Source: a virus. Taken from it: a stretch of 64,000 nucleotides of DNA. How positions within the stretch are numbered: position 1 is the stretch's first letter; every line of letters begins with the position of its first letter. A program made the position numbers and the translations under genes. The stretch is from IMG/VR virus record IMGVR_UViG_3300042691_019786. One strand, given 5' to 3'. This document shows, one piece after another, positions 10,777-63,790 of the stretch. A model generated the notes under the pieces. That model was given only the letters and a program-made list of their open reading frames with translations, did no database searches and had not been told where the DNA came from.

Positions 10777-10903
10777 TGGGGGCGGCTGGAATTGCACCAA
10801 CGTTTTATCAAATTTACAGTTTGCGTGAATAATTTTGATTTTGCTGCAAACATTCTTTAATCTAAAAGGCAGAATGTGATTTATCTAACATTTCAACACC
10901 CCC
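10777..10903 (-). ncRNA. tRNA-like RNA with CAGCAA stem and a GTA anticodon-like hairpin
   Basis: GGGGGTG/CGCCCCCA acceptor, T-arm-like hairpin, internal CATTCT/AGAATG-TTTGCAGCAA, caaa-ctGTAaa-tttg. Confidence 0.55.
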
Positions 10904-11000
10904 ATAATATGTGTCTCTCCACATCTGTCACACCACTTTGTATTCTGTTAACCTCACGATGGGCCCTAACGGTAAAACGGTGTCAAAAACCAGTATATTT

Positions 11001-11672
11001 TTATTTTCTTCCTTTAACCCAACCTTCGTTTAGGTATGTGTCTAACTCTTCTTTCTTAATCTTCTTATTAGAACCATCCTTAGTTATCCAACATGTACCA
11101 TATTGACTGTTTGATTCACCAATACCTTTACCTTTAGATGATTCAGACATTTTCTTTTTAGTTTGGTCAGAATGATTTTTACCTCTAAATGGTGAACCAA
11201 AATCAAAACCAGAATGTTTTTGACCATTACTAATATTCTTACCTCTAATCAACTTTTCTTCTTCAGTTAAATTTGAATGGTAATTTTTAATAATTACAAT
11301 TTTAAATTTTTCACCATACTTTTCTTTTAGTTTTTCATCACATTTAACCCTACCTAACTTTACACCGTCTTCGGATATAAACCCTCCTTCACCACCAACA
11401 ACTAAATTCATACACTCATCTTTTGCTATTTCATCTAAAGTAACGATTTCTTTTTCTCTTTTTTTCAAATCGGCTCTAGTTTCACAAAATTCTAAAATTT
11501 CTCGCTTGAAATTTGATTTGCCATGTTTTCTAATAGCTAACCTCAATCTATTCCCACTACCTAAATATCCATCATCTAGACTATCGGTACTATGCATTCC
11601 TATATAATATCTACCACTTAATATATTAGTAGTTTTATATATAAAATGATACTTTTTTTCTTTCCTCGCCAT
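11001..11672 (-). mobile_element. GIY-YIG (Seg-like) homing endonuclease with NUMOD3
   Basis: FIYKTT..YYIG.H..Y.GSG and GKNHS.TK.K.S motifs; lies in a tRNA cluster. Confidence 0.88.
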
Positions 11673-11733
11673 AATTATATTCTTTTAATATAAATATGTG
11701 CTAAAACGTAAAAAGTACAAAAAACGGTCTCGG

Positions 11734-11805
11734 AGCAGATGAGGTGAATCGAACACCCATCCGAGCCTTGGCAAGGCCCCGTAATAGCCATTATACGACA
11801 TCTGC
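11734..11805 (-). tRNA. tRNA-Gly(GCC)
   Basis: Cloverleaf; loop ttGCCaa; U73. Confidence 0.88.
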
Positions 11806-11864
11806 ATAGAGTGTGGTAGGGCAGCTGTCCCTTGAGGCACCCACACTTGTTGTTCCTCTTTTTG

Positions 11865-11938
11865 AGCGGATATTCAGAATCGAACTGAAATCCCAGGCTT
11901 GGAAGGCTAGTATAATAAAACCATTATACGATATCCGC
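11865..11938 (-). tRNA. tRNA-Gly(TCC)
   Basis: Cloverleaf; loop ctTCCaa; U73. Confidence 0.88.
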
Positions 11939-12029
11939 AAATTTTGAAGAATGACAGTCACGGCCATCTCTAGGTTCATTCTTCTAATGTTAACCGTGGC
12001 AAAATATGGCTCGACCCTAGTTAACCTTG

Positions 12030-12102
12030 AGCCTTTAGTCGGATTCGAACCAACGACCCCTTCATTACAAGTGAAGTGCACTACCAGCTGTGCTATAAAG
12101 GC
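12030..12102 (-). tRNA. tRNA-Thr(TGT)
   Basis: Cloverleaf; ttca-ctTGTaa-tgaa. Confidence 0.9.
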
Positions 12103-12170
12103 AAAAATGAATTTATTACGTTACTTAATAACTACTAAGTCGATAAAATTCTAAACGGTCTCATAGCGAG

Positions 12171-12252
12171 TGAGAGCAGTAGGATTCGAACCTACTCAGC
12201 GTTAACAACAGATTTACAGTCTGCCCCAGCTCTCCAACTCTGGCGTGCTCCC
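12171..12252 (-). tRNA. tRNA-Tyr(GTA)
   Basis: gcaga-ctGTAaa-tctgt; long variable arm. Confidence 0.9.
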
Positions 12253-12259
12253 AAATAAC

Positions 12260-12321
12260 AAGATAGTATGTTACGTGTCAAAATAAAAGTTTGATGTTTG
12301 GTAATTTGCTGAAACTATCTT
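12260..12321 (-). ncRNA. TCAGCAA-stem RNA displaying a Lys(TTT) anticodon-like hairpin
   Basis: AAGATAGT-TTCAGCAA...tcaaa-ctTTTat-tttga...ACTATCTT; lies just after a promoter motif. Confidence 0.55.
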
Positions 12322-12395
12322 TTATTATTATATTGCAAATGTACAAACTATTTTTTACATATGCAAGTTTTTTTTGTGAAAAAAATTCACTTTTG

Positions 12396-12469
12396 ATTTC
12401 CGAGAGGGCTTCGAACCCCCAAATTCTCCCTTCAAAGGGGAGTGACTTTGCCAGTTTGTCTATCGGAAA
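12396..12469 (-). tRNA. tRNA-Gln(TTG)
   Basis: ctccc-ctTTGaa-gggag. Confidence 0.85.
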
Positions 12470-12536
12470 ATAGTCTAATTCTATGCAGTGGGGCTTCACC
12501 ATATGGCACCCTATGAATTAGTAACAGTCTCTCGTG

Positions 12537-12610
12537 TCGAATAGGTTGGATTCGAACCAACGTGCTCGGCATTCCAAATGCCGCTAGATAAACCACTCCT
12601 ATACTACTCG
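12537..12610 (-). tRNA. tRNA-Pro(TGG)
   Basis: cggca-ttTGGaa-tgccg. Confidence 0.88.
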
Positions 12611-12617
12611 TTATGTG

Positions 12618-12690
12618 TCTAAATGGCAAGGTTCGAACTTGCGGTCTCTGCGTCCCAAACGCAGCGGAATACCAACTTTCCCACATCTAG
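12618..12690 (-). tRNA. tRNA-Pro(TGG)
   Basis: ctgcg-ttTGGga-cgcag. Confidence 0.88.
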
Positions 12691-12753
12691 ATATTTTTAA
12701 ACCAACATGTCAAATAACGTTCCTATTAATTGGGTGGCATAGGTGCCATAAAC

Positions 12754-12788
12754 AAAAAAACCCAGTCTAGATTTCTCTGAACTGGGCC
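12754..12788 (-). terminator. Attenuator terminator 1
   Basis: ggCCCAGT...ACTGGG-TTTTTTT; the 5' arm is also complementary to ACTGGGC inside the leader ORF. Confidence 0.8.
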
Positions 12789-12809
12789 TTATAAGTGTTT
12801 TTATATTTC

Positions 12810-12911
12810 TTATAATGTAGTCAAGTCAAACAACATGACACGCCCAGTCGATTGCGGTTGTCCGCCTTTCGTATACTGTTTCGGTTGATATGTCATATAA
12901 GTTGTTTTCAT
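12810..12911 (-). CDS. Leader peptide 1 MKTTYMTYQPKQYTKGGQPQSTGRVMLFDLTTL
   Basis: Residues 1-20 are only M,K,T,Y,Q,P,G; downstream tRNAs are Pro, Pro, Gln, Tyr, Thr, Gly, Gly, Lys, Lys. Confidence 0.85.
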   Translation of the reverse strand: MKTTYMTYQPKQYTKGGQPQSTGRVMLFDLTTL

Positions 12912-12920
12912 TTTCTTTTA

Positions 12921-12996
12921 TATTAAATATATGGTTTTTTTAAAAAGTTTAAATTTATACTACAAATGTACGAACTATTTTTACATTTGTCAAGTT
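12921..12996 (-). promoter_or_regulatory. Bacteroidetes-type sigmaA promoter (TTGACA...TACATTTG) plus TATATTTAAT element upstream of leader 1
   Basis: Matches the -33/-7 consensus; nearly identical to 55161-55235. Confidence 0.75.
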
Positions 12997-13011
12997 TTTT
13001 TCAAACTTTTT

Positions 13012-13473
13012 TTAATTTTTTTTATTTTTATTTATTTCATCCCTTAATTCAGCTGCTTTTTCGTATTCTTCAGCTTGAATCGCTTCTTCTAATAATTCTT
13101 CCAAAGACTTAGGGTCTTCAAGTTCAAATGGCATGTCTGAAACTTCTAACTTAACAATTTCACCGTCTTCAACTTCCCATATAGACTTTTTAAAGTATAA
13201 TTCATCTTCATGATAATACTCTACTCTAGTAGGTTCACCATATTCAGTGTCTATTTTGAATTTTTCATCATCATCAGTTATTTGTCTAGCGTTAGACAAC
13301 ACTTTGATTAATTTGGATAATTCATCACTAAACCCTTCATTTTTAGGTTTTTCCTCTTTTTTATTTTTCTTCTTAGATTCATCTGAATTCTTTTTATTAA
13401 AGAACTCTTCGAATAATTCGTCAAATGTTTTCATTTTACTTTTTTTTTTTAATAAATTTTTCATGTAACCCAA
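13012..13473 (-). CDS. UvrB/UvrC-motif protein
   Basis: C-terminal LEEAIQAEEYEKAAELRDEI; start probably MKTFDE. Confidence 0.75.
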   Translation of the reverse strand: MGYMKNLLKKKSKMKTFDELFEEFFNKKNSDESKKKNKKEEKPKNEGFSDELSKLIKVLSNARQITDDDEKFKIDTEYGEPTRVEYYHEDELYFKKSIWEVEDGEIVKLEVSDMPFELEDPKSLEELLEEAIQAEEYEKAAELRDEINKNKKN

Positions 13474-13903
13474 TAATCTTTTCTCTAATAAGTTTAATAG
13501 GATTTATTTTGTAAAGGTACATAAAAAATCCAAAAAAAACAAACGCTAACGTATACATAATTGCCATAGTCATCCAATAATTTTTTGTTAGTAGTGTAAT
13601 GCTATAAACGACAACATCATAACCCAGTGGGTTTAAAAATAAAGCAATCGTTATAAATGTATTACCTAAAACTCTTTTTTTTAATCTAAAAAATAAGTGC
13701 GACAATAAGAAGAACACAAATGCTAATCCATATAGAATGTACATTGTACTCCAATAATCGTTGGTTAACTGCATCAGTTTGAAAACCAGTATGTCGAACC
13801 CTAGGGGGTTCAGAAAAGTCGCTATCATTAGACAAATTGTCCCCAGTACTTTTCTGCTTACTATCACATTCACTATCCATTTTTTATTATTTAAAAACAA
13901 CAA
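13436..13903 (-). CDS. Membrane protein with internal duplication
   Basis: FLNPLGFD/FLNPLGYD repeated with hydrophobic helices. Confidence 0.65.
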   Translation of the reverse strand: MLFLNNKKWIVNVIVSRKVLGTICLMIATFLNPLGFDILVFKLMQLTNDYWSTMYILYGLAFVFFLLSHLFFRLKKRVLGNTFITIALFLNPLGYDVVVYSITLLTKNYWMTMAIMYTLAFVFFGFFMYLYKINPIKLIREKIIGLHEKFIKKKK

Positions 13904-13946
13904 CCTTAACTCTACTTAAAAGTTGTTCTTATGAACTAAGTCTTTA

Positions 13947-14267
13947 TTATAAATATCTAATAAAATTAAATATACGTCTATTTTTTAGATAATTCAAGTT
14001 ATTATCATTATCATATGCTTCTTTTTCAAAAGAAACGTTATAATAACCTTTAGTATAATATTCAATCAAGTACCATATATAAAAAGGGATTATTAACATT
14101 TCCAATTGTTGTCTTAGGTGAATTCTTTCATGATTTATCAACTCTGGCGTTGCTTTCACTTTGCTATTAAGAATAACAAAAGGAAAGAACGCCATTGCTG
14201 ATGGTAATTGACCTCCACCTAAAAAGAATGTCAAAAACCTTAAAAATCTATCACTTACTATTACCAT
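13947..14267 (-). CDS. Small HExxH zincin-like membrane protein
   Basis: INHERIH..QQ.E...SFE.EAY. Confidence 0.7.
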   Translation of the reverse strand: MVIVSDRFLRFLTFFLGGGQLPSAMAFFPFVILNSKVKATPELINHERIHLRQQLEMLIIPFYIWYLIEYYTKGYYNVSFEKEAYDNDNNLNYLKNRRIFNFIRYL

Positions 14268-21155: not shown

Positions 21156-21156
21156 G

Positions 21157-21228
21157 TACAGCGTGTTGGAATCGAACCAACGTCCCCCACTTCTATAGAG
21201 TGGACTCTACCACTGGAGCTAACGCTGT
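21157..21228 (-). tRNA. Atypical tRNA, anticodon ATA
   Basis: Cloverleaf; ccact-ctATAga-agtgg; no nucleotide 26. Confidence 0.55.
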
Positions 21229-21239
21229 AAATGAGTACC

Positions 21240-21368
21240 AAGATTGCCCTTTTTTTTGTGCTACCCTTACACCACACGCCCCTACCTCTGTTTTAGGACA
21301 TGCTGGGATTCGAACCCAGTCCCTTTGTTATCTATACAAATTTTTAGTTAACTTGCTGAAACAATCTT
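21240..21368 (-). ncRNA. Circularly permuted tRNA-mimic (YrlA-like topology) on a TCAGCAA stem
   Basis: AAGATTG-TTTCAGCAA, then T arm, loop-closed acceptor stem, D arm, CAATCTT. Confidence 0.65.
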
Positions 21369-21409
21369 TTAATTACTCTGTAAGACAGAGGACTTAATAC
21401 TGGGGGAAC

Positions 21410-21533
21410 AAGATTACTTTTTTGATACGTGCTCTATCCGCTGAGCTAACCGCCCAATTAAGGACAGTATGGGATTCGAACCCATGACCACGAGGTTAAC
21501 AGCCTATTCAGTTTTTGTTGCTGAAATAATCTT
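21410..21533 (-). ncRNA. Circularly permuted tRNA-Asn mimic on a TCAGCAA stem
   Basis: AAGATTAT-TTCAGCAA, agg-ctGTTaa-cct, T arm, loop-closed acceptor, D arm, GTAATCTT. Confidence 0.65.
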
Positions 21534-21585
21534 TCTTTCCCTTGTAACATTCTACGCAGTTCCCCACGTAGAATATTATTGCTAA

Positions 21586-24370: not shown

Positions 24371-24496
24371 TCGGAAGGGTTAGACTCGAACTAACACTCT
24401 GCGGTTCCGATTAGCGTTTTATTTGCTGAACTTAATCTTTAAAACAGATTAAACTTTTTGCAATACCGCTGCCTCTACCAATTGGGCTACCTCCCG
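24371..24496 (-). ncRNA. tRNA body whose anticodon loop is replaced by the TCAGCAA stem
   Basis: Normal acceptor, D and T arms; TTAATCT/AGATTAA-GTTCAGCAA inside the gcggt/accgc stem. Confidence 0.65.
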
Positions 24497-28259: not shown

Positions 28260-28331
28260 TTATATTCGGTGGGAACACTATATCATCCGCTCATAGAGTC
28301 TGTCAATAATATAGGTTCATCACCTCACTTG

Positions 28332-28402
28332 TATTGGGTACGGGATTCGAACCCGTGTCAACCGCTTCACTGCGGCCATCCTATCCACTAGACGAACCCA
28401 AC
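28332..28402 (-). pseudogene. tRNA-like gene (Glu/Asp-type body) with a 6-nt anticodon loop
   Basis: gccgc-agtgaa-gcggt; other arms intact. Confidence 0.55.
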
Positions 28403-33240: not shown

Positions 33241-34434
33241 TTATAACTTGTAAAATTCTCTTCTTATTTTAACCAATAAAGTATTAACCAATTCTGGGTC
33301 AATCTTGTTTGGTAAGTCTGATTCGTCAAAGATTCTATCCATCTCTTTGATTTCAGCTTCTGCTGTATCAATAAGTGTATCTAAATCAACTTCACCACGT
33401 CTAATCGCTAACAATTCTTTAGCGTCTGGTCGTCTAACGATAATACCTTCACCTCTACCAATTTCTTTAGCCATTCTGATTAATCGCATACAATGCATCA
33501 TGTTTTTACCGTCAATCTTTTGACCATGTGCTTGTGTGTCAACATAACGCTGTTCATTTCTGTTAGCCAACCATTCTTCATACTCTTTGTAATCTTTACA
33601 ATGCATTGAGTAACCATCTTTGTTATAGATAATGTTACAGATAGGTTTTTCACCTTTTGGTATACTAGATAACCTTAATTGATTTGATTCAGCAGCGTTT
33701 GCACCTTCACCAGTCTTAACAAGACCTTTATATCCAAAACCCATAGGGTAACCTTCTTCTTTTCTCCAAGCTTTAGACTTTTCTCTAATATCTTCTGGAA
33801 TGTTTTCGTTAAAACAGTTATTAGCATCAACATCAAAGAAAACAGCATAAACATCTCTAGCGTTAGGTACGTTAGTTACACCGCAAAACTTTTCATCATA
33901 TGTACCGTTATTCCACACTTTCCATGGAATAGATTTTTCACCTTCAATAACATATACAAAGTCCAATACATCTTTACGAGTTACTTTATCTTTCTCCCAA
34001 TTCTGTTTTTTGTTAAGACCTCTAGCTTTTTGGATTTGCTGTACAGCATAACCAGCAAATGAGTTCTTACACCTTTTGGTAATAAAATCAGCCTTGTGGT
34101 CCAATACATATTGGAACAATGGATGTTTTGTGATGATACAATCTTCTGGTGTGTTAAGCAACTCTAAAACTGTAGGATTTGAGCTTCCCATTAGTTCTAA
34201 GAACCTTTTTAACTCCCAACCAGTATAGTCAGCATTAACATTCAACTGTTCAACATATCCAGTACCCAAGATATTATCAATAGGTAACATGTAAACGAAT
34301 TTTCGGTCTTCGTCAGACGTTGGTGTCTGAGTACCATAGGCTTGACTACCAATAATGCATTCAAAAAGAATCAATCCATTCTCTTTAAGGTAATCGTATG
34401 TAATTTTCTGTGTCATATTCTTAATTTTTAACAA
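33241..34434 (-). CDS. Pol-beta-superfamily nucleotidyltransferase (YcgL/RlaP-like)
   Basis: GSQAYG....SD.D, NP.VLE and K...H..RL...IR.G motifs. Confidence 0.85.
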   Translation of the reverse strand: MLKIKNMTQKITYDYLKENGLILFECIIGSQAYGTQTPTSDEDRKFVYMLPIDNILGTGYVEQLNVNADYTGWELKRFLELMGSSNPTVLELLNTPEDCIITKHPLFQYVLDHKADFITKRCKNSFAGYAVQQIQKARGLNKKQNWEKDKVTRKDVLDFVYVIEGEKSIPWKVWNNGTYDEKFCGVTNVPNARDVYAVFFDVDANNCFNENIPEDIREKSKAWRKEEGYPMGFGYKGLVKTGEGANAAESNQLRLSSIPKGEKPICNIIYNKDGYSMHCKDYKEYEEWLANRNEQRYVDTQAHGQKIDGKNMMHCMRLIRMAKEIGRGEGIIVRRPDAKELLAIRRGEVDLDTLIDTAEAEIKEMDRIFDESDLPNKIDPELVNTLLVKIRREFYKL

Positions 34435-39712: not shown

Positions 39713-40426
39713 TTAAGCTAATTTCAATGGTCTTAAATATTCTCTTAGGAACGCATTAACTGGTCCACCAATTTTTTCTTCCCATTGTTTATAATTCTTA
39801 GCATTTTTCTCTTCCAATTGAGATAAAGCTTTCTCTGATGGCTTGTGTCTACTCCATGGTAACGTTTCTGGTACAAAGTCTGGATATAACGTTCTGTTAA
39901 ACACCCTTTCATCAACTAAGAAAACAAACGCTGTTAATTGGTCACCCAAATCTGGTTCATGAAACTCTTGCAACAACACACCAGCTTCACGCATAGTTTG
40001 CATGTGTCTATTCAAAGTTCCCAATCTTTCTGGGTTGTTGTTTGTTGTACCACCGTTAAGAATAATAAATGTTTTATCTTTATCAGCCCATTTGTTATAT
40101 ATTTGTTGATGTGGTTTTAACCCTTCAACAGTTCTACCATAATCAACGACAGCGTGACCAAATTGGATTCCTTGTTGAATCGGGGACATGTTATACGGAA
40201 CCAACCCATACATTCTACGTTCTAAGTACATTTCACTCTTACGTGGTGTTGAATCAGCTTTAACTTTACATAACCCTAAACGTCTGTAAAACTCTTGCAC
40301 ATCAATTTTTTCTTCATAATACGATTCTTCGTAAAATGCCATAGATGTGTCCCATGATGAAATGTCTAATATTCTAACATTTGCATCTAAACACCATTCA
40401 TATCCAGTTTTTAATATCTTTTCCAT
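39713..40426 (-). CDS. Pth2-like peptidyl-tRNA hydrolase domain protein
   Basis: IQ.GHAV, IILNGG and F.EPDL...LTA motifs. Confidence 0.6.
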   Translation of the reverse strand: MEKILKTGYEWCLDANVRILDISSWDTSMAFYEESYYEEKIDVQEFYRRLGLCKVKADSTPRKSEMYLERRMYGLVPYNMSPIQQGIQFGHAVVDYGRTVEGLKPHQQIYNKWADKDKTFIILNGGTTNNNPERLGTLNRHMQTMREAGVLLQEFHEPDLGDQLTAFVFLVDERVFNRTLYPDFVPETLPWSRHKPSEKALSQLEEKNAKNYKQWEEKIGGPVNAFLREYLRPLKLA

Positions 40427-41733
40427 TAATTTCCTATTTCAATTAAATGTGATACAGTACATTGTGCTGAGTTATATACTATATATTCGTTATTTCTTAG
40501 GTCAGCGCCACCTTTTGCAAACACACTATCAAATCCTTCATTATCTAACACTTTCTTAGATAACTTATAACAGCTTGAGTCATGGTGCAATATTTCTTTT
40601 TGTTTACCCAAATGCACATCAAACAATGCCAAAAACGCTTTGTTATCACCACCATGAGCCCAATAAGAACCTCTTAACGATGTGTAACCAATAGATTTTT
40701 GTGCTTTGTCAGCAAAGTAGATACCATCACCAAACATTGACCCAGTATGTACCGCACCAGATGGTCTGATAAGTAACCCAGTTTGTAAAATGTTAAACCA
40801 GTTCTCATTTCTTGACCCATGCCAGTATAGTCTACGTTTCTTAACTTCAACTTTATCCATGTGTTTATCAAATATTTTTTGTGTTTTGTTGTTAACAACC
40901 TTGAACACACGTTTCATTTGATTCACATTTGGACCCATCAATTTTTTGATAAGTTCAAGCGTTTCAGTATCATTTTCAACCTCAATAGATAATCCCATTT
41001 GGTCTAAGATAGTAACTTCAGATACTTCTTCTTTTTTACCTTCAGCTTCAGCCTCAGCAGCTTTCTTAGCAGCTTCTCTTTGTTGTTTAATCAACTCAAC
41101 TTGACCAGCCATTGTATCCAACGCTGATTGTTCGTTATCAATCAATCTTTGTGCGTTAGTCAAACTAACATCATTACTAATCTCTCTAAACAAATGGTCT
41201 TTTACGTTATCCATTCTTCTAGGGATAATTGTATAAAGTTTCAATAACATATCATTGATATGTTTGATATCTACACCAATAGCAATCAATCCACTAATGT
41301 TAGTGATAATCTCTTGTGCAGCGGTAACTTGTTGTTCCGATACAGCTTCTTGCGTTACCTTATAGTTACGTTGGATTGATTTGTTGGCAAATGACATCAA
41401 TTCATCAACCAATTTACGCACAATCTCATCTTTGATATTTGCAACTTTATTATCAACTGGTTTTGATTCATCCACAACTGGTTCAGCCAACAAATCAGTT
41501 ACATCTGTATAACCTTTTGTTTTTGATAGTTTTTGTTTCAACACACTATCCCATTTTGAACTAGGTTTATATTCAGTTGTTAAAGACTTGCCAACACGAC
41601 CATATTCACATTTGATACGGCCATCTGATAATTCTTCCATAATATAAACTTTATTACTTTGGCTGGTCAAACCATTATCAACTGATACATGTATCAGTTT
41701 TGCGTATCTTAAACCGTTCTCTTTTACTATCAT
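40426..41733 (-). CDS. WGR-domain poly/mono(ADP-ribose) polymerase
   Basis: YGRVG (WGR-like), LYT.IP regulatory helix, WHGS, G.MFG.GIYFA..S..Y and NEYIVY (H-Y-E triad). Confidence 0.9.
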   Translation of the reverse strand: MIVKENGLRYAKLIHVSVDNGLTSQSNKVYIMEELSDGRIKCEYGRVGKSLTTEYKPSSKWDSVLKQKLSKTKGYTDVTDLLAEPVVDESKPVDNKVANIKDEIVRKLVDELMSFANKSIQRNYKVTQEAVSEQQVTAAQEIITNISGLIAIGVDIKHINDMLLKLYTIIPRRMDNVKDHLFREISNDVSLTNAQRLIDNEQSALDTMAGQVELIKQQREAAKKAAEAEAEGKKEEVSEVTILDQMGLSIEVENDTETLELIKKLMGPNVNQMKRVFKVVNNKTQKIFDKHMDKVEVKKRRLYWHGSRNENWFNILQTGLLIRPSGAVHTGSMFGDGIYFADKAQKSIGYTSLRGSYWAHGGDNKAFLALFDVHLGKQKEILHHDSSCYKLSKKVLDNEGFDSVFAKGGADLRNNEYIVYNSAQCTVSHLIEIGN

Positions 41734-48529: not shown

Positions 48530-49654
48530 TTACAACATTTTATATAACGTTTTATCGTCATAGTTAAACATATATTCTTCAACTGATGCTATTTTGTAAT
48601 CTTTCAACCCAAAATACAACCCAGTAAAGTTTTTTAAATCATATTTCTCACAAACTTCAAACACAGCAGCAGCAAACTTTTTTTGTTCTGGTTTTGTTAC
48701 GTTTTTTGGTTTACGCAACTTTAATTCATCCCATACAACATTCAATTTTGCAACCAACGCATCGTAAGACTCTTTAAGACGATTTAATTCTTCTGTTCTT
48801 TCTGGGAAAGTAGCAGCAAATTCTTCTATCTCGTTAGTTTTTACAATAGTTAATATGTTGTGTTCAGCAGTTTTACCTTTCAAGTGGTGTACCGCAACAT
48901 ATGCTGGATTTTTCACTTTAACACGATTGTCATTACCATCACGTACAACATAACCTTCTTCAGACCATGGCATACCTTCAAATGTTTTCAACAAGTGACC
49001 AACATTTTTTGCGTTTAAATCAAAAGATTTTACCAATGGTATATCCAATGATACCGCAGTCATTTCCAAGTCTCTCCCAGACAACTCAACAAGTGTTTTT
49101 CTGTTTCTAACAGCCAACAAAGTCGCTGATGATTCACCATGTGGTTTTACTACTATGTTATATGGTGTAGTTAACTCAAACACATAGATATAATCATAAT
49201 TTAACAAACATGCATTGAATGTGTATTTGTTGTTAACAGTATCCCAAAACAATTCGTTAAATTTAGTACCATTTTTGTTGTTAACTTCACCTTCACCGTT
49301 TGCAGTACCAGTAGTACCAGCATACCATGTCATGTCGTGCCAATCATAATACACTTGTATCATAGTACCATCCAATTTTTCAAGTACTTGTGCAGTATTC
49401 CAATCTATTTTAGCAGCGTTACCTTCTTCAGAGTTGAAGAATTTTCTAAACGCCAAAGACATTACGTTCCAAGTACCTTTTTCAAGGATGATTCCACGAC
49501 AATCTTGCATCTCTGGCAATGACATAAGTGTTGGTGACACTAATTGGTCATACTTCAAGAGTATTTTGTGTTCATACTCTCTAGTTTTTAAAGAAAAGTC
49601 TTTGATTGTTTTTTCTAAACCGTGTGTTCTTAAATATTTTTGTATAGCTAACAT
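48530..49654 (-). CDS. Rnl1-family (T4 RnlA-like) RNA ligase
   Basis: CRG, KFFN, EKLDG, FEL, EGYV and VKVK...Y motifs. Confidence 0.9.
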   Translation of the reverse strand: MLAIQKYLRTHGLEKTIKDFSLKTREYEHKILLKYDQLVSPTLMSLPEMQDCRGIILEKGTWNVMSLAFRKFFNSEEGNAAKIDWNTAQVLEKLDGTMIQVYYDWHDMTWYAGTTGTANGEGEVNNKNGTKFNELFWDTVNNKYTFNACLLNYDYIYVFELTTPYNIVVKPHGESSATLLAVRNRKTLVELSGRDLEMTAVSLDIPLVKSFDLNAKNVGHLLKTFEGMPWSEEGYVVRDGNDNRVKVKNPAYVAVHHLKGKTAEHNILTIVKTNEIEEFAATFPERTEELNRLKESYDALVAKLNVVWDELKLRKPKNVTKPEQKKFAAAVFEVCEKYDLKNFTGLYFGLKDYKIASVEEYMFNYDDKTLYKML

Positions 49655-53224: not shown

Positions 53225-53326
53225 CTCACCCACTAGGATTCGAACCTAGGACCTAACGGTTAACACTCCTTGTATGAACTTACTTATCATACCTAGCCGT
53301 TTGCTCTACCACTGAGCTATGGGTGA
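53225..53326 (-). tRNA. tRNA-Asn(GTT) with a 30-nt insert (53265-53294) in the anticodon loop
   Basis: aacgg-ct[insert]GTTaa-ccgtt; the rest is canonical. Confidence 0.8.
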
Positions 53327-57112: not shown

Positions 57113-58243
57113 TCAAAAAATAAATATATCTAGATAAAGTTTTTTAAAATTATCAGTTTCTAGTCTTTGTATTTCTTTACCTAATTCTGGTCCTTGTTTT
57201 AACCCCATCTTTGTCATTAGGTCTGAACCATTAACCGTTAATTTAAATAATAAAAATGTATCTATAATCTTTACATCAATACCACTTAATTGAGCAAATC
57301 TAGTTATTTGTTCTGCTGTTACACCAGATGTCTTTTCAGCTTTTTTAAGCGTTACAGCTGTATCAATCGACAAATTCAATAGACTAATCAAAAATGTAAT
57401 AGCTCTTATTTCATCAATTGAGTATTTTAATTTGTTCAATTGTTTTGTTAATAAATCAACTTTATTATTCTTTAACAACATTGCTAAAACAATAATTATA
57501 TCATTATCTTCAATGAAATTTTTATTAACATTAACATCTTTAAAAACCCAATCAAATAAATTGTATTTGTCAATCATTTTTAAAAACGATTTTACAGATT
57601 TTGCTGATTTGATACCTTTCAAAAACTCATCTCTGATTCTTTCACCAGATATACCTTCCAAACTAGCATCTTTTTGCAATGCAGCGTCAACTGATGGGTC
57701 TAATTCACTACCAAATCTACCAGCAAATCTAATTGCTCTTAATATACGTAATCTATCTTCACCAAATCTATCTTCAGCTGCACCTACAGTCCTTACAACA
57801 CTGTTTTTAAGGTCTTCTATACCATCAACCAAATCAACAACTTCTGACGTGTCTATATCGTAAAATAATGCGTTGATTGTTAAGTCACGTCTTTTAACGT
57901 CACCTACTATATCTGTAAAACTAACACCATCTGGTCTTCTACCGCTAGATAAGTCTTCCCTAAAAGTTGCGATTTCGTATTCACCCATATCAGTAAAGAC
58001 GTTGATAACACCAAATGCTTTACCAGTTGGTAAAGTTCTAAAACCACCTTTAGCCATTATGTCTTCCACTTGGTCTGGGATAGCATCGGTTGCCAAATCG
58101 TAATCTTTAGGTGTTTTACCTAACAACGCATCACGCACTGCACCACCTACAACATATAGGTTAAAACCATTTTGCTTAAAAACATCTTTTATTTGTAAAA
58201 TGTCTTTTGGTATTGGCATATCAAATATAATTCTCTTTTCCAT
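57113..58243 (-). CDS. cca: CCA-adding tRNA nucleotidyltransferase (class II)
   Basis: VGGAVRD...DYD, RRDLTINAL, EDRLRILRAIRF and ERI..E motifs. Confidence 0.92.
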   Translation of the reverse strand: MEKRIIFDMPIPKDILQIKDVFKQNGFNLYVVGGAVRDALLGKTPKDYDLATDAIPDQVEDIMAKGGFRTLPTGKAFGVINVFTDMGEYEIATFREDLSSGRRPDGVSFTDIVGDVKRRDLTINALFYDIDTSEVVDLVDGIEDLKNSVVRTVGAAEDRFGEDRLRILRAIRFAGRFGSELDPSVDAALQKDASLEGISGERIRDEFLKGIKSAKSVKSFLKMIDKYNLFDWVFKDVNVNKNFIEDNDIIIVLAMLLKNNKVDLLTKQLNKLKYSIDEIRAITFLISLLNLSIDTAVTLKKAEKTSGVTAEQITRFAQLSGIDVKIIDTFLLFKLTVNGSDLMTKMGLKQGPELGKEIQRLETDNFKKLYLDIFIF

Positions 58244-59671: not shown

Positions 59672-59723
59672 AACTTTTTTTTAATAAATATATCAATAAT
59701 AATGCCAAAGTAAACATTATTTG

Positions 59724-59794
59724 TGGTCTTAGAGGGAATCGAACCCTCACTATCGGTTTTAGAGACCGTTACGCTGCCGTTACATCATAAGACC
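59724..59794 (-). tRNA. Amber suppressor tRNA (CTA)
   Basis: Cloverleaf; acggt-ctCTAaa-accga; own promoter motif at about 59806. Confidence 0.88.
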
Positions 59795-59830: not shown

Positions 59831-61450
59831 TTATGCAAATTTATTCTTTAATAATTTTTTTATTAATTTTTTATTCTCAGTAACATTATGTTTTGATTTT
59901 CTTCTAACAAATTCATCGTATTCGCTTTGTGTGATAAGACCATTTTTAAGGTTTTGTGCCAAATTTTCTAAATCTATGTTTTTATCCCTTTCTTCTCGTT
60001 CTCTTTCCTTTTCTTCGAACTCATCTAAATCAGTATCCAACACCCATACGTCACCGTAATCATTCGTATTTACTTTTGTTGCGTCATTTGGGTGTGCAAA
60101 CATTGCCTCACCATAATGTGCTCTGTATAATTCAACAGCGTCAGATTTTAATATTGTTTTTTCATCATATGTTTCTACAGTATCATCACTAAAAGCATAT
60201 GGTATTTCATAAATGTCGTCATCTAACGTTACATAGTCGTCATCAGTTGTTATATATTGATTTTCACCATAGTAATTTGGTTCTAATTCTATGGTATCAT
60301 CTAATTTAGCATATTCGCCTTCGTATCTACCATAGGTTAATTCTACGTGTACTGAATCATCATCATATTTATATATCCATTCATGGTCATATGTTTTAAT
60401 ACAGTCATCAATTAAGTATACACCACCATCTATTGATACTATATCATCTTGGTGTGCGTAACCTTCTACATACCCATTTGGTGTTCTATATGATAAATAA
60501 AACGCTTCATCTTCATCTACAGTCTCACCTTCATGGTCACCATATTCAATATAAACCCCAGCCTCTGAATGACCACCATGAGAGTCTTGTAATCGAATCC
60601 AACCTTGTTCTCCACTAGTCGCTAATGTGCTAGTTTCTGGATTATAATACTCAAATGTATCCATAAATGGGTATGTGTCATATTCACCACCATTCTCAAG
60701 CGTTACTGTCGAATTAGCTCTATTACTAAAACCATGTTCTTCAGCATAATTGTTGAAGAATGTGTTAAATTCTTTATTTGTTGTATAAATCCTATCCATA
60801 AAGTACTGGTCGTTATCCATATGCCAAATAAGCGCTCTACCTCTAACTTTTTTTGTTTCTGGATTTAATAATACAAGACATTTAACTTCATTAGGGTTAT
60901 CAGTATAAATTTTAAGATATTCTTGCGCTCTACTAAATCTCATACATGAACCCATAGTTTCACCATCTTCATAATTACCACAGTGATATGCTTTTAGAAT
61001 ATCATCACCTTCAACCATTTTTAATTGTGATGTATCAGCTGTTTTAAGATGACCAATAAGGTCTTCTATTTCATAGTCTTTAATATCTTTTATGTTACTA
61101 CCTAGATAATTGAGAAGTTTATTAATCTTAAACAATCTTTCTTTAGTATTACCATTAATATCAGTATATCCTAAAGTGATTAATTTTTCATTTTTTTTGT
61201 CATAATCAACATATTCGACATTAGCGTCATCTTTTATTTTATCACTATTTAAAAACGCTAATAATTTTTTAGATAAAGGTGTGTTAATGATATTTAATTT
61301 TTTAGTTAAATTATCACCAACTTTGATTTCTTTTTCCAATATTAAAAATAATTTATTTAAATTAACAATTTTTTGCCTTTCAATTATTAATTTATCATTT
61401 TTTATATTTTTTATAGATTCTTTAAATAATTTTTTAATTAACTGTTTCAT
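59831..61450 (-). CDS. Hypothetical late protein with acidic pseudo-repeats
   Basis: LIKKL N-terminus, GSCMR domain, repeated DDxx.L units. Confidence 0.65.
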   Translation of the reverse strand: MKQLIKKLFKESIKNIKNDKLIIERQKIVNLNKLFLILEKEIKVGDNLTKKLNIINTPLSKKLLAFLNSDKIKDDANVEYVDYDKKNEKLITLGYTDINGNTKERLFKINKLLNYLGSNIKDIKDYEIEDLIGHLKTADTSQLKMVEGDDILKAYHCGNYEDGETMGSCMRFSRAQEYLKIYTDNPNEVKCLVLLNPETKKVRGRALIWHMDNDQYFMDRIYTTNKEFNTFFNNYAEEHGFSNRANSTVTLENGGEYDTYPFMDTFEYYNPETSTLATSGEQGWIRLQDSHGGHSEAGVYIEYGDHEGETVDEDEAFYLSYRTPNGYVEGYAHQDDIVSIDGGVYLIDDCIKTYDHEWIYKYDDDSVHVELTYGRYEGEYAKLDDTIELEPNYYGENQYITTDDDYVTLDDDIYEIPYAFSDDTVETYDEKTILKSDAVELYRAHYGEAMFAHPNDATKVNTNDYGDVWVLDTDLDEFEEKEREREERDKNIDLENLAQNLKNGLITQSEYDEFVRRKSKHNVTENKKLIKKLLKNKFA

Positions 61451-61537
61451 ATAAATAAATATCTAATGAAAATAAAAAAAAGCATAGATAATGTCTATGC
61501 TTTTTTTTTTATAATATTTATTTTATCCCTATATTTT

Positions 61538-62104
61538 TTATTTGAATAAAATTTTTCCTAATCTTAACGCACTTGCTTTAAATTGCTCATAAGTACCATT
61601 GTTTTCAATAACAATGTCTGCACATGTTCTATCAATGTTGAATGAACTAGCGTCTTCGTTTGGTAGTCTTTCAGATGCATCCACCCAAATAACCAAATCA
61701 AAAATACCTTGTCTTAAACATTCTTCAATTTCATCTCTGTCACGCATTCCTACATAACAATCTGAACGTTGTAAGATACCTTTAGCTAATTTAGCTCTAT
61801 CATCTTTGTTATAATCACAAATAGCTTCATACCATTCTTGTCTGTGGTTAACTCTATCTTCAAAACATTCTTCTGGTGTTGAATAACCATATTTGTCTTT
61901 TAATAAGTCATACAAAAAGATATTTGCTGCTGATTGAGATGATGATTCAAACGTATAACCAAATTCTTCATTGAAGATTTCAGCTAATGTATCTTTCCCA
62001 TGTCTCATGTTACCTATGATTAGTAACTTAGGTTTTCTTGTTTTACCAGTTAGTCTTTCTAACATTTTTGTTTCTGCATCCATATAATTTATATTTAATC
62101 CCAT
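61538..62104 (-). CDS. dNMP-kinase-like P-loop protein
   Basis: G..RHGKDT and D.VI.NNG motifs. Confidence 0.65.
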   Translation of the reverse strand: MGLNINYMDAETKMLERLTGKTRKPKLLIIGNMRHGKDTLAEIFNEEFGYTFESSSQSAANIFLYDLLKDKYGYSTPEECFEDRVNHRQEWYEAICDYNKDDRAKLAKGILQRSDCYVGMRDRDEIEECLRQGIFDLVIWVDASERLPNEDASSFNIDRTCADIVIENNGTYEQFKASALRLGKILFK

Positions 62105-62355
62105 TCTAAAATATTTTGGTCACGGTCTTCAATAACACAACGTAACCCTTTTTCAACGTCACAATGATAAGTGATAAAATCACCACCAATATTCATACAT
62201 GTGTTAACACCTAACGCTTCATAAAACTTATCTTTATCGATTTTGTATTTTTCTAATATGGTCACGATTTCATAACCAGTAAAACCTTCTTTATGTTTGG
62301 TTTTATAAGTGTCGATAAATAACTCTAAATTTTCGCTAGTTAATTTTTTTACCAT
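62095..62355 (-). CDS. Hypothetical protein
   Basis: ORF. Confidence 0.6.
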   Translation of the reverse strand: MVKKLTSENLELFIDTYKTKHKEGFTGYEIVTILEKYKIDKDKFYEALGVNTCMNIGGDFITYHCDVEKGLRCVIEDRDQNILEWD

Positions 62356-62509
62356 TTTCTTCTATTTTTAATTTTACCTTTTGCGGAAAATAAAATAACT
62401 AATAAAAACACAATAATTGCTAATACCGTCATCTTTTACAAATTTACTAAATATTATTCATATATGCAAATAAAAAAAGCCATCATTTAGATGGCTTCTT
62501 AATAAGTTC

Positions 62510-62589
62510 AGAATAGTCTTTGTGGAATTGAACCACTAATCGAATTTTGCAAATTTAATTTTCATCCAGAAGATTGCTGAAACTATTCT
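62510..62589 (-). ncRNA. TCAGCAA-stem RNA with a T-arm and GCA loop
   Basis: AGAATAGT-TTCAGCAA...ttGCAaa...GTGGTTCAATTCCAC...ACTATTCT. Confidence 0.55.
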
Positions 62590-62595
62590 TTTTAG

Positions 62596-62665
62596 TAGCG
62601 AACTCGGAATCGAACCACCCTTCAAGGTTATGAGCCTCGTGTGCAACCTCTTACACCATAACGCA
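62596..62665 (-). tRNA. tRNA-Met(CAT)-like gene with a degraded T/acceptor stem
   Basis: cgagg-ctCATaa-ccttg; imperfect 3' half. Confidence 0.55.
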
Positions 62666-62670
62666 ATATA

Positions 62671-63177
62671 TTATTTGGTGGATTCTAGTGACTTTTTTAG
62701 TATAAATGAGATTGTCCCTTTAGAAGATATCCCATGTTTAGCCATTATTTCACTAAAACTTAAACCATTCTTTTTATCATTGATAATAGCTTCATGGTTA
62801 TATTTTAAGTTAGCTTTACTAGATAACTTAATTCTTTTTTCTTTAGGTACGTCTAAAGAATTTTCACTATATGTACCAATCCCTATATTATCATACGAAT
62901 TATCCGTTGATATTCCGTTTAAATGTCTGACAACAATACCAGTTTCAAAAATTTTATCACCAAATTTTTGATAAGCTTGTAATCTGTGAACAAAAGACCT
63001 AGTTGGGTTTGAACCCTTTTCTACTCTAATGTTAAAAGATAAATAACCTTTTTTAGATTTTCCAATTGAGATTTCTTGACCATCTTTATTAAAGACTTTA
63101 CCATCTTTATCAACTGAATAACCTTTATCAACACTTAATTTGGTTATTAACTCTTGTTTGCTTACTTCAATACTCAT
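62671..63177 (-). mobile_element. HNH homing endonuclease
   Basis: VHRL.A...VRHLNG..DN...N....T.SEN; lies between two Met tRNA genes. Confidence 0.85.
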
Positions 63178-63196
63178 ACAAATACTTTTAAAATTT

Positions 63197-63264
63197 ATTA
63201 ACTTCTTAGTCACCATTTAGGTGTGCAATAACCACTACGTGCAAGTGAGTTAATTTCGGTTATC
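63197..63264 (-). ncRNA. HDV-like (theta) self-cleaving ribozyme
   Basis: P1 GATAAC/GTTATT, P2 ATTAACT/AGTTAAT, P3 CAC/GTG, P1.1 GC/GC, P4 CACC/GGTG, J4/2 aCTAAGa; starts right after the tRNA discriminator. Confidence 0.8.
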
Positions 63265-63336
63265 TAGCGGAGGAAGGAATCGAACCCCCGACCTCAAGGT
63301 TATGAGCCTTGCGAGCTACCTCTGCTCTACTCCGCA
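63265..63336 (-). tRNA. tRNA-Met(CAT), initiator-like
   Basis: 1:72 mismatch; caagg-ctCATaa-ccttg. Confidence 0.88.
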
Positions 63337-63341
63337 ATGTG

Positions 63342-63419
63342 TGCCCTAGACTGGCTACGAACCAGTTATCCCATAGATATCTTTCGATACCCATCTGATA
63401 AAGTCTAAACTTCTAGAGC
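63342..63419 (-). ncRNA. tRNA-like RNA without an anticodon loop
   Basis: GCTCTAG/CTAGGGC acceptor, T arm, central GTATC-GAAA-GATAT hairpin. Confidence 0.5.
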
Positions 63420-63423
63420 ATAG

Positions 63424-63498
63424 TTGGCCAGAATCTGTTTTTTTTACTTTGCTTAGAATATAGTATAGTTAAATTGCTGAATAGATTCTTTCTGCCAA
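63424..63498 (-). ncRNA. TCAGCAA-stem RNA
   Basis: TTGGC..AGAATCT-ATTCAGCAA...AGATTCT.GCCAA. Confidence 0.55.
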
Positions 63499-63510
63499 TA
63501 AGTTTATCTC

Positions 63511-63790
63511 AAGATGGTTTTTTGTGTTTTTTCATCCCAGCGGATTAACCCTTTTTACGTCTTCGGCTACGCTTTGGCGAGAGTCTACTGTTATTCGACT
63601 ACATCCTACTTGCACCTATTGGGGTGGTTGTGACGTGGTTTTTGTTTTAATTGGAAACCTAACCAATTTTGTTTAATTCCGTTGCAGTAAAAACCATCCG
63701 AGTCCTTCTTTCAAAGGTCATATTGTCTTTCTGGCATACCAACTAAACTCTCATAGTAATTGTATCTGTTTTGGTTGCAGAACCCATCTT
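63511..63790 (-). ncRNA. ~280-nt RNA closed by a CTGCAA-variant stem
   Basis: AAGATGG-GTTCTGCAA...CCATCTT with a nested second motif; follows a promoter and boxA. Confidence 0.5.

What the first reader, a model, noticed from the sequence alone, without database searches (positions are those of the whole stretch)
10777..63790. Family of TCAGCAA-stem tRNA-mimic RNAs in several circular permutations
Seen: at least eight elements share a helix beginning AAGA, immediately followed by an unpaired CAGCAA (CTGCAA in the last copy): 10777, 12260, 21240, 21410, 24371, 62510, 63424 and 63511. The attached cargo differs: a lone anticodon hairpin (TTT, GCA), a permuted T-arm/closed acceptor/D-arm domain (21240, 21410), or a normal tRNA body with the helix inserted (24371, 10777). 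Established: bacterial YrlA Y-RNAs join a Ro60-binding stem to a permuted tRNA-like domain. Inference: the motif is a protein-binding handle (a TROVE/Ro-like partner is not in this window) that presents tRNA parts as decoys or scaffolds for RNA repair.
Basis: partly seen in the sequence, partly recalled or inferred. Interest (0 to 1): 0.8.

Follow-up and report, generated by a model that had tools for sequence, protein, structure and literature searches.

The report
Partner RNAs of phage Ro60-like protein
This giant phage hides eight small RNA genes among its tRNA genes; all share one conserved "handle" that most likely docks them onto a Ro60-like ring protein, and each carries a different piece of tRNA, a protein-RNA pairing found in hundreds of phages but, as far as I could find, not yet published.

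Summary
All eight elements exist at the stated coordinates, on the minus strand like the 35 tRNA genes. Each has an 8-bp helix (5' A-R-R-A..., 3' ...U-Y-Y-U-G), then UU(C/G)CAGCAA or UUCUGCAA, and an A-rich run before the 3' strand. The core pattern occurs 6 times against 0.02 expected. Cargo is an anticodon-stem-loop mimic (Lys UUU; Cys GCA plus a T-arm-like hairpin), a permuted T-arm/closed-acceptor/D-arm domain (two copies, sub-threshold YrlA hits), a 260-nt unknown RNA, or a tRNA-like body with the handle closed as a hairpin.

Relatives of this phage encode a DUF2828+vWA protein that folds like Ro60, and a handle RNA follows its stop codon. The same handle flanks this gene in about 17 of 19 phage loci and most of 80 bacterial loci. 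In 121 genomes of one bacterial family, it occurs in all 8 genomes with the gene and in only 1 of 113 without. A model trained only on bacterial copies ranks window elements 1st, 2nd and 4th.

The handle is not the YrlA motif and is in no Rfam family. It resembles Dictyostelium Class I RNAs. The decoy/repair function remains inference. This scan has already found the same system on many other genomes.

The parts
63510..63791 (-). Long-cargo handle RNA. 5' AAAGAUGGG + UUCUGCAA, about 260 nt of unknown structured cargo, an A-rich run, then CCAUCUUG. A TAnnTTTG promoter box lies about 50 nt upstream.
   Evidence: An orthologue exists in G005. No Rfam match for the cargo.
63428..63491 (-). Short handle RNA (64 nt). 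AAAGAAUCUA + UUCAGCAA, 37 nt of cargo with no clear anticodon hairpin, then AGAUUCUGG.
   Evidence: Full-length hit to Rfam Dicty_Class_I_RNA at 30.2 bits, E 0.003, below the gathering score. Second-best hit of model R1 in the window, E 0.04.
62509..62591 (-). Handle RNA whose cargo is a GCA (Cys-type) loop plus a T-arm-like hairpin (GUGG-UUCAAUU-CCAC). It starts 5 nt after a degenerate tRNA-Met copy and is followed by an intrinsic terminator.
   Evidence: The G004 orthologue has a completely different stem (GGUUGAG/CUCAACC) and the same kind of cargo.
24371..24496 (-). tRNA-shaped RNA (acceptor, D arm, T arm) in which the anticodon loop is replaced by the handle in closed form. The hairpin UUUAAUCUG-uuuu-AAAGAUUAAG + UUCAGCAA spans 24453-24423.
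   Evidence: Rfam tRNA at 42.8 bits with a large insert.. Conserved in G001-G004 with a U-A to U-G change in the hairpin.
21409..21534 (-). Handle RNA with a permuted tRNA-like domain: a 3-4 bp closing stem, T arm, acceptor stem closed by a 6-nt loop, then D arm.
   Evidence: YrlA (RF02553) hit over model positions 24-84 at 32.9 bits. Orthologues score 39.3 and 42.3 bits, against a gathering score of 69. The closed acceptor stem is rewritten with pairing kept in L001.
21239..21369 (-). Second handle RNA with a permuted tRNA-like domain (T arm, closed acceptor, D arm). It lies directly upstream of an odd tRNA with anticodon AUA.
12259..12322 (-). Short handle RNA (64 nt) carrying an anticodon-stem-loop mimic, UCAAA-CUUUUAU-UUUGA (Lys UUU). 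It is the first RNA after a TTG/TAnnTTTG promoter and lies 6 nt before tRNA-Tyr.
   Evidence: compensatory U-A to C-G change in relatives. Best hit of model R1 in the window: 27.2 bits, E 5.6e-5.
10777..10903 (-). tRNA-like RNA with a 7-bp acceptor stem, a CAAA-CUGUAAA-UUUG (Tyr GUA) hairpin and a weak T arm. The D arm is replaced by the closed handle hairpin ACAUUCUG...AAAGAAUGU + UUGCAGCAA (10877-10841).
   Evidence: Neither ARAGORN nor Rfam calls it a tRNA.

Best explanation
The eight elements are small non-coding RNAs, co-transcribed with the phage's tRNAs and probably freed by the RNase P and RNase Z cuts that mature the neighbouring tRNAs. They share a handle: an 8-bp purine-started helix, the single-stranded (U/A)C(A/U)GCAA next to its 5' strand, and an A-rich opposite strand. 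The handle is the docking site for the phage's Ro60-like ring protein (DUF2828 + vWA), which is encoded outside this window. This parallels the way Y RNAs dock on Ro60. The variable part of each RNA displays a piece of tRNA: an anticodon stem-loop of a particular identity, or the T-arm/D-arm elbow with a closed acceptor stem. This turns the ring into a set of particles that present tRNA look-alikes. I think the most likely use is to trap or divert host enzymes that bind or cut tRNA, such as anticodon nucleases. A related use would be to hold damaged tRNA for the phage's own repair enzymes (Rnl1-type ligase, RlaP, CCA-adding enzyme, all in this window). Shown here: the family, its covarying helix, and its tight genomic coupling to the DUF2828 gene. 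Inferred: physical binding, processing, and the decoy/repair role. The confidence given (0.7) is for the partner-RNA reading; for the decoy/repair function alone I would say about 0.35.
For: The motif is far above chance: 6 matches against 0.02 expected. Stems differ between the eight copies and between orthologues while pairing is kept. The DUF2828+vWA protein of related phages has a Ro60 fold. The model has pLDDT 82, and the top 13 PDB matches are all Ro60/Rsr, full length, E 3e-9 to 8e-6. Its MIDAS residues are invariant. A handle RNA begins 10-70 nt after the stop codon in G004, G005 and about 17 of 19 phage loci. In 80 bacterial loci the RNAs lie in tandem upstream of the gene. CAGCAA occurs in 61 of 74 upstream stretches against 9 of 75 control stretches. 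Of 169 upstream motifs, 95 have an 8-bp partner followed by G, against 13 of 518 elsewhere and 3 of 169 after shuffling. In 121 genomes of one bacterial family, all 8 genomes with DUF2828 have RNA-model hits, always just upstream on the same strand, against 1 of 113 genomes without the gene. In three whole genomes (14 Mb) the only hits lie at the DUF2828 locus. A model built only from bacterial copies ranks window elements 1st, 2nd and 4th. Cargo made of tRNA parts recurs across the family, and in Felix O1. RNA-repair genes lie in the window. A member of the protein family, Bas63 gp130 (a Felix O1-type phage), counters the Ppl defence experimentally; its authors guessed that neighbouring 'tRNA genes' might be Y RNAs.
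Against: There are no expression or binding data for any member. This genome's own DUF2828 gene was not seen by me, because the window's end could not be extended. In the complete relative G005, most handle RNAs lie 40 kb from the gene. Adjacency is therefore not universal, and the coupling in this clade rests on one RNA per genome plus shared motifs. Bas63 gp130 alone, expressed without phage RNAs, sufficed against Ppl, so the RNAs may serve another purpose. Some cargoes (63491-63428 and the 260-nt one) show no tRNA part. My stem-based detectors select for pairing, so '100% paired' figures are partly circular; the shuffled and positional controls are what carry weight.
Confidence: 0.7

Rival explanations
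1. The handle binds a host factor rather than the phage DUF2828 protein. Candidates are the host's own Ro60/Rsr, or an RRM-type RNA chaperone as found in Bacteroidota. On this reading the RNAs are sponges for that host protein.
For: Control genomes show that Bacteroides carries both TROVE and RRM proteins. Dictyostelium Class I RNAs, which the handle resembles, bind an RRM protein directly. Most handle RNAs in this clade are not next to the DUF2828 gene.
Against: Handle RNAs and the DUF2828 gene co-occur across phyla whose hosts differ completely: 8 of 8 genomes with the gene against 1 of 113 without. They are also strictly adjacent in most loci. A host-factor sponge would not need the gene alongside.
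Confidence: 0.1
2. The helix and motif are an RNA-only device for processing or stability. It would act as a clamp that sets RNase P/Z/E cleavage or protects spacer RNAs in the tRNA operon, with no dedicated protein.
For: Elements begin 2-5 nt after the discriminator base of an upstream tRNA and end 4-10 nt before the next tRNA. A terminal helix would protect the ends.
Against: This does not explain the invariant single-stranded CAGCAA, the closed-hairpin versions buried inside tRNA-like bodies, or the presence of the elements upstream of DUF2828 genes in bacterial loci that have no tRNA array.
Confidence: 0.08
3. They are permuted or intron-bearing tRNA genes, matured by cutting and ligation (the phage has an Rnl1 ligase) into working tRNAs, as in the permuted tRNA genes of the red alga Cyanidioschyzon.
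For: The 21534-21409 and 21369-21239 elements have 3'-half-then-5'-half order. The 24496-24371 element could yield an A-U-UGC-A-A loop (Ala) if about 52 nt were removed. RNA ligase and a CCA-adding enzyme are present.
Against: The permuted copies have no anticodon arm; joining their ends gives a loop of more than 40 nt. The acceptor is closed by a loop of 6-13 nt with no sign of processing sites. Many members carry only a hairpin or no tRNA part at all. In relatives the anticodon-stem pairing of the 24496 orthologue decays. No splicing endonuclease is known in this context.
Confidence: 0.04
4. They are decaying tRNA pseudogenes plus a short repeated element, left behind by homing-endonuclease traffic in the tRNA clusters.
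For: GIY-YIG and HNH endonuclease genes sit next to three of the elements. A degenerate tRNA-Met copy lies beside one of them.
Against: All copies have the same orientation as the tRNAs. The stems covary rather than repeat. The elements are conserved at syntenic sites in phages whose neighbouring protein is only 64-75% identical. The family is present in Felix O1 and in bacterial loci.
Confidence: 0.02

Closest known systems
Ro60 (Rsr, TROVE+vWA) with Y RNAs, especially bacterial and phage YrlA (Rfam RF02553; Chen et al. 2014, PMC4201824; Thermus phage phiLo Ro60 with Yrl1/2, PMC12135203)
   Same: A ring protein with a HEAT-repeat and vWA fold. Small RNAs are encoded beside it. The RNAs are modular: a terminal helix as the presumed docking site plus a second module. 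In two window copies that module is a T-arm/closed-acceptor/D-arm tRNA mimic in the same order as YrlA.
   Different: The protein belongs to Pfam DUF2828/DUF7788, not TROVE PF05731. Its sequence similarity to solved Ro60 structures is insignificant. The handle is A-R-R-A helix + (U/A)CAGCAA, not the GNCGAAN0-1G / CGAA motif. No element reaches the YrlA gathering score. There are many RNAs per genome, with interchangeable cargo that includes bare anticodon hairpins and closed-hairpin permutations.
Dictyostelium Class I RNAs (Rfam RF01414; Kjellin et al. 2021, PMC7919456)
   Same: Both have a short stem joining the 5' and 3' ends in which structure, not sequence, is conserved. Both have a 5' AAG and a 3' CUG(U). 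A conserved, largely unpaired ...UUACAGCAA lies directly after the 5' strand, followed by a variable remainder of 50-65 nt. Four short members give full-length hits of 25-30 bits, each exactly on an element.
   Different: All hits are below the gathering score of 41.5. The stem is 6 bp in Dictyostelium against 8 bp here. The distance from the conserved G to CAGCAA is 10 nt against 8-9 nt. Class I RNAs are eukaryotic genes with their own DUSE promoter, and their known direct binder is an RRM protein. No link to a DUF2828 protein has been tested.
Bas63 gp130 (Felix O1-type phage), a Ro60-like counter-defence protein against Ppl (PhageMaP preprint, 10.1101/2024.10.10.617714)
   Same: Felix O1-type phages carry a homologue of the DUF2828 protein (43% identity). 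It sits directly upstream of a tRNA array in which I found four handle RNAs, one with a permuted tRNA-like domain. The authors speculated that some neighbouring 'tRNA genes' are Y RNAs.
   Different: That work tested the protein alone and did not identify the RNAs or the handle. I checked Felix O1 (FO1a), not Bas63 itself.

Membership tests
DUF2828-associated handle RNAs (undescribed family, defined here from loci next to DUF2828 genes) | An 8-bp helix whose 5' strand starts A-R-R-A and whose 3' strand ends U-Y-Y-U followed by G | tested here: met
   All eight window copies. The same consensus holds in 144 filtered elements from phage and bacterial loci.
DUF2828-associated handle RNAs (undescribed family, defined here from loci next to DUF2828 genes) | (U/A)C(A/U)GCAA directly 3' of the helix's 5' strand, and an A-rich run before the 3' strand | tested here: met
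   Seven copies have CAGCAA (six as UUCAGCAA, one as UUGCAGCAA) and one has CUGCAA. The CUGCAA variant is also the one found right after the DUF2828 gene in G004 and G005.
DUF2828-associated handle RNAs (undescribed family, defined here from loci next to DUF2828 genes) | Recognised by a covariance model trained only on bacterial members | tested here: met
   With R1 (17 bacterial sequences), window hits 1, 2 and 4 are 12258-12324 (E 5.6e-5), 63428-63492 (E 0.04) and 62508-62592 (E 0.24). Long-cargo and hairpin forms cannot be scored by this model.
DUF2828-associated handle RNAs (undescribed family, defined here from loci next to DUF2828 genes) | A DUF2828+vWA gene in the same genome | tested here: inconclusive
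   Absent from the window. Present in relatives G004 and G005. The rest of this genome could not be fetched. An earlier scan note places the gene 5.6 kb beyond the window.
YrlA / bacterial Y RNA (Rfam RF02553) | tRNA-like domain: T arm, acceptor closed by a loop, D arm, with a closing stem | tested here: met
   Met for 21534-21409 and its orthologues (32.9-42.3 bits over model positions 24-84). 21369-21239 has the same layout. The other six copies do not.
YrlA / bacterial Y RNA (Rfam RF02553) | Reaches the Rfam gathering score (69 bits) including the outer Ro-binding stems | tested here: not met
   The best score is 42.3 bits. The outer stems align with non-standard pairs.
YrlA / bacterial Y RNA (Rfam RF02553) | GNCGAAN0-1G (CGAA) Ro-binding motif near the 5' end (PMC4201824) | tested here: not met
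   The handle carries AAAGR...CAGCAA instead.
YrlA / bacterial Y RNA (Rfam RF02553) | Partner is a canonical TROVE (PF05731) Ro60 | tested here: not met
   No PF05731 match in G001-G005, including the complete G005. The partner candidate is PF11443/PF25043.
Dictyostelium Class I RNA (Rfam RF01414) | Terminal stem plus the adjacent 11-nt CCUUACAGCAA motif, reaching the gathering score of 41.5 bits | tested here: not met
   The stem and the U..CAGCAA core are present, but scores are 25-30 bits and the spacing differs by 1-2 nt.
Dictyostelium Class I RNA (Rfam RF01414) | Dictyostelid gene with a DUSE promoter about 60 nt upstream | tested here: not met
   The elements lie in phage tRNA operons with Bacteroidota-type TTG/TAnnTTTG promoters.
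Permuted or intron-containing tRNA genes | Processing restores a canonical cloverleaf with a 7-nt anticodon loop | tested here: not met
   The permuted copies have no anticodon arm. Only 24496-24371 could in principle give an Ala-type loop, and its orthologues lose this.

The most novel reading that the evidence does not exclude
The phage and bacterial handle RNAs and the 'orphan' Class I RNAs of Dictyostelium are one ancient RNA class that docks on DUF2828-type Ro60-like proteins. Class I RNAs would then be the amoeba's Y-RNA analogues. DDB_G0281243, the protein of unknown function pulled down with Class I RNA DdR-21, would be the ring protein. I could not test whether Dictyostelium has a DUF2828 protein. 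The family does occur in eukaryotes (plants) according to papers that mention it.
Probability: 0.1. Interest if true: 0.9.

Novelty: new variant of a known kind. Interest (0 to 1): 0.72.

Why it matters
Ro60-Y RNA particles are known from animals, some bacteria and a few phages, and their purpose in microbes is still unclear. Here a second, much more widespread phage branch appears. The protein matched 710 cultured-phage records, including Felix O1, Listeria, Staphylococcus, Campylobacter and mycobacteriophages, and thousands of metagenomic proteins. It comes with its own RNA family, which I found in neither Rfam nor the papers I could search. The RNAs carry exchangeable tRNA parts with specific anticodons. 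That makes a concrete, testable link between Ro-like rings, tRNA-targeting bacterial immunity and phage RNA repair. It also means that many 'spacers' and odd 'tRNAs' in phage tRNA arrays are really genes of this family. One member of the protein family already has an anti-defence phenotype. The resemblance to Dictyostelium Class I RNAs offers a lead on RNAs that have been unexplained for twenty years.

Tried and rejected
- Plus-strand reading: AAGACAGCAA as one contiguous motif is not enriched, with 4 hits against 5.8 expected. The real motif has 3-6 stem bases between AAGA and TTCAGCAA and lies on the minus strand.
- Known RNA families: Rfam at gathering thresholds gives only tRNAs. Permissive scans give only sub-threshold YrlA and Dicty_Class_I hits. 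I compared the sequences by eye with GOLLD/ROOL and with the consensus of self-cleaving ribozymes (hammerhead, twister, pistol, hatchet, recalled from memory) and saw no match; no such family hit in Rfam.
- Canonical TROVE and RRM partners: none in the related phage genomes.
- GCAA pairing with a downstream UUGC/UUGU as a second conserved helix: present in about half the copies but not universal, so it is not part of the definition.
- Close relatives among cultured phages: megablast found none.
- Extending the window to see this genome's own DUF2828 gene failed. No whole genome is held.
- Testing whether Dictyostelium DDB_G0281243 is a DUF2828 protein failed. The 2011 pull-down paper is not held. 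Supplements and full-text searches gave nothing. The homologue search lists only unnamed phage and bacterial proteins.
- My first stem detector looked downstream of the bacterial DUF2828 genes and found no enrichment. The RNAs there lie upstream.

Full report
**What is there.** The window is part of a very large phage genome. It has 34-35 tRNA genes, all on the minus strand, and Bacteroidota-type promoters (TTG ... TAnnTTTG). It also has GIY-YIG and HNH homing endonucleases and a set of RNA-repair genes: an Rnl1-type RNA ligase, RlaP and a CCA-adding enzyme. There is a run of A, then a helix strand starting AAGA or AGAA, then UUCAGCAA (once UUGCAGCAA, once UUCUGCAA). A variable cargo follows, then an A-rich run, and then the complementary strand ending UCUUG or UUCUG.

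The pattern AAGA-N3-6-TTCAGCAA occurs six times, against 0.02 expected from shuffles. All six are on the tRNA strand and in tRNA spacers. The stems differ from copy to copy (AUAGU, UUAU, UUGU, UUAAG, AUCUA, UGGG, AUGU) while pairing is kept.

**The two forms of the handle.** In six copies the helix joins the two ends of the RNA. In the other two (24496-24371 and 10903-10777) the same helix is closed as a hairpin. There it sits inside a tRNA-shaped body, in place of the anticodon loop or of the D arm. The order of parts is the same in both forms: A-rich run, 3'-type strand, 5'-type strand, CAGCAA.

**Cargo.** 12322-12259 carries a Lys-type anticodon hairpin (UCAAA-CUUUUAU-UUUGA). 62591-62509 carries a GCA loop and a T-arm-like hairpin. 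10903-10777 has a Tyr-type hairpin (CAAA-CUGUAAA-UUUG). 21534-21409 and 21369-21239 carry a T arm, an acceptor stem closed by a short loop, and a D arm. 63791-63510 carries about 260 nt of unknown RNA. 63491-63428 has no obvious tRNA part.

Related phages add Arg-UCU, Pro-UGG and further Lys and Cys hairpins, several on the same CAAA/UUUG stem. This looks like one module diversified by anticodon.

**Relatives and covariation.** Proteins flanking the elements found related phage contigs at 64-75% amino-acid identity. The elements lie at syntenic sites in those contigs. Compensatory changes are seen:
- The stem of the Lys element changes UAGU/ACUA to UAGC/GCUA.
- The closed acceptor stem of the permuted domain is entirely rewritten in one contig with pairing kept.
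- Orthologues in a more distant contig have wholly different stems with the same cargo type.

**The partner.** I could not reach that DNA, and the window itself has no such gene. Two related phages, one a complete 288-kb genome, encode a 476-483-residue protein with Pfam DUF2828 and DUF7788. They have no canonical TROVE protein and no RRM protein.

An AlphaFold model of this protein from a 24-sequence alignment has pLDDT 82 and pTM 0.80. Its 13 best PDB matches are all Ro60: Thermus phage phiLo, Xenopus, human and Deinococcus Rsr. The matches run over the whole length, with E from 3e-9 to 8e-6. By sequence alone the relation is not detectable. The DxSxS MIDAS residues are invariant. In both phages a handle RNA with the CUGCAA variant and a 130-150-nt cargo starts right after the stop codon and ends at a terminator.

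**How general the pairing is.**
- Phage loci: among 19 loci with this gene (38-100% identity), about 17 have one to three handle RNAs just downstream, with very different stems.
- Bacterial loci, position: among 80 loci, mostly Clostridia but also Chloroflexota and others, the RNAs lie in tandem arrays upstream of the gene. CAGCAA is present in 61 of 74 upstream 350-nt stretches, against 9 of 75 control stretches.
- Bacterial loci, pairing: 95 of 169 upstream motifs have a perfect 8-bp partner followed by G. Elsewhere in the same loci the figure is 13 of 518, and after shuffling the 5' strand it is 3 of 169.
- Independent model: I built a covariance model from 17 bacterial copies only. Seven of its eight pairs change on both sides, though the sequences were selected for pairing. 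The model ranks window elements first (E 5.6e-5), second and fourth in the 128 kb searched.
- Whole genomes: in three bacterial genomes the model's only hits are at the DUF2828 locus.
- Co-occurrence: in 121 genomes of one bacterial family, all 8 genomes with the gene have hits, on the same strand just upstream, against 1 of the 113 without it.
- Felix O1: the gene (gp42) heads the tRNA array, and four handle RNAs, one with a permuted tRNA-like domain, lie between the tRNAs.

**Comparison with what is known.** The logic is that of Ro60 with Y RNAs. The two permuted domains match the tRNA-like part of YrlA at 33-42 bits, below the gathering score of 69. However, adjacent ordinary tRNAs can also give about 30 bits with that model. 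The defining YrlA handle (GNCGAAN0-1G; CGAA in phage phiLo) is absent, and the protein is a different Pfam family. The elements are therefore not YrlA members, though they probably work like YrlA.

Short members give full-length hits to Rfam's Dictyostelium Class I RNA family. The scores are 30.2, 26.4, 25.0 and 25.9 bits, against a gathering score of 41.5, and each hit lies exactly on an element. That family is defined by a terminal stem, a 5' AAG, a 3' CUGU and an adjacent CCUUACAGCAA motif, and was reported as unique to dictyostelids. The likeness is real as a pattern. Whether it reflects common descent, a shared kind of partner or convergence is open. The pull-down of a Class I RNA included a protein of unknown function, DDB_G0281243, whose family I could not determine.

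I found no paper describing the handle RNAs. The PhageMaP preprint shows that Bas63 gp130, a Ro60-like protein of a Felix O1-type phage, counters the Ppl defence. Its authors guess that some neighbouring 'tRNA genes' may be Y RNAs.

**Mechanism, and what is not shown.** I think the handle docks on the ring protein and the cargo presents tRNA parts. The particles would then trap or divert tRNA-binding host enzymes such as anticodon nucleases, or hold damaged tRNA for the phage's ligase, RlaP and CCA-adding enzyme. Only the genomic coupling, the covarying helix and the fold are shown. Transcription, processing, binding and function are all inferred. One point weighs against a strict need for the RNAs: gp130 alone worked against Ppl.

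**Standing within this scan.** Earlier notes report the same protein-RNA pairing on many other genomes: 181 notes in at least 145 genomes by one look-up. One such report was later re-checked there. Its observation stood, and its bold reading was rated unlikely. My tests above were run independently of those reports, apart from the lead to DUF2828 and to the PhageMaP paper.

Noticed in passing
window 53225-53326 (-): A second tRNA-Asn (GUU)-like gene whose anticodon loop holds a hairpin insert of about 30 nt (GUAUGA...UCAUAC). The insert has no CAGCAA handle. Rfam tRNA scores it 58.4 bits; ARAGORN misses it. It may be a small intron or another kind of tRNA decoy.
   Followed up: no
window 62596-62665 and 62671-63216 (-): An HNH endonuclease gene sits between tRNA-Met (63337-63264) and a degenerate second copy of the same tRNA (Rfam 20 bits). 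This looks like a homing-endonuclease insertion that duplicated part of its target.
   Followed up: partly
window 21156-21228 (-); L001 4180-4258 and 4601-4672; L002 7442-7520: The tRNA directly after the second permuted element has anticodon AUA here. In relatives it has a four-base anticodon (UUUA/UUAU), and one relative has a UUA (ochre-reading) tRNA nearby. The window also has a CUA (amber-reading) tRNA at 59723-59794 and a tRNA with an 8-nt anticodon loop at 28331-28402.
   Followed up: no
window 33241-34434, 48530-49654, 57113-58243, 38-1666, 40426-41733 (-): An RNA-repair and NAD-related gene set: RlaP nucleotidyltransferase, T4 Rnl1-type RNA ligase, CCA-adding enzyme, nicotinamide phosphoribosyltransferase and a PARP-domain protein. 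This context fits tRNA damage and repair during infection.
   Followed up: partly
L028 3946-4110, L031 3961-4093, L033, L039, L032; L024 (minus strand) after the DUF2828 stop: The long handle RNAs that directly follow the DUF2828 gene share a conserved 3' module: CUUC...ACAGAGUUAGAAG-UAAAAAGCUCCA just before the 3' strand. It could form a small pseudoknot (CUUC/GAAG and GAGC/GCUC). This module is not present in the window's 260-nt cargo.
   Followed up: partly
L016 369-738: A related phage contig carries a tmRNA gene with an unusually long predicted tag peptide, a few kb from its handle RNAs.
   Followed up: no
window 63338-63427 (-): The spacer between the short handle RNA and tRNA-Met contains a T-loop-like GGUUCGUAGCC and may be a further tRNA-like fragment. 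The G005 orthologous spacer holds a long-armed tRNA-like sequence.
   Followed up: no
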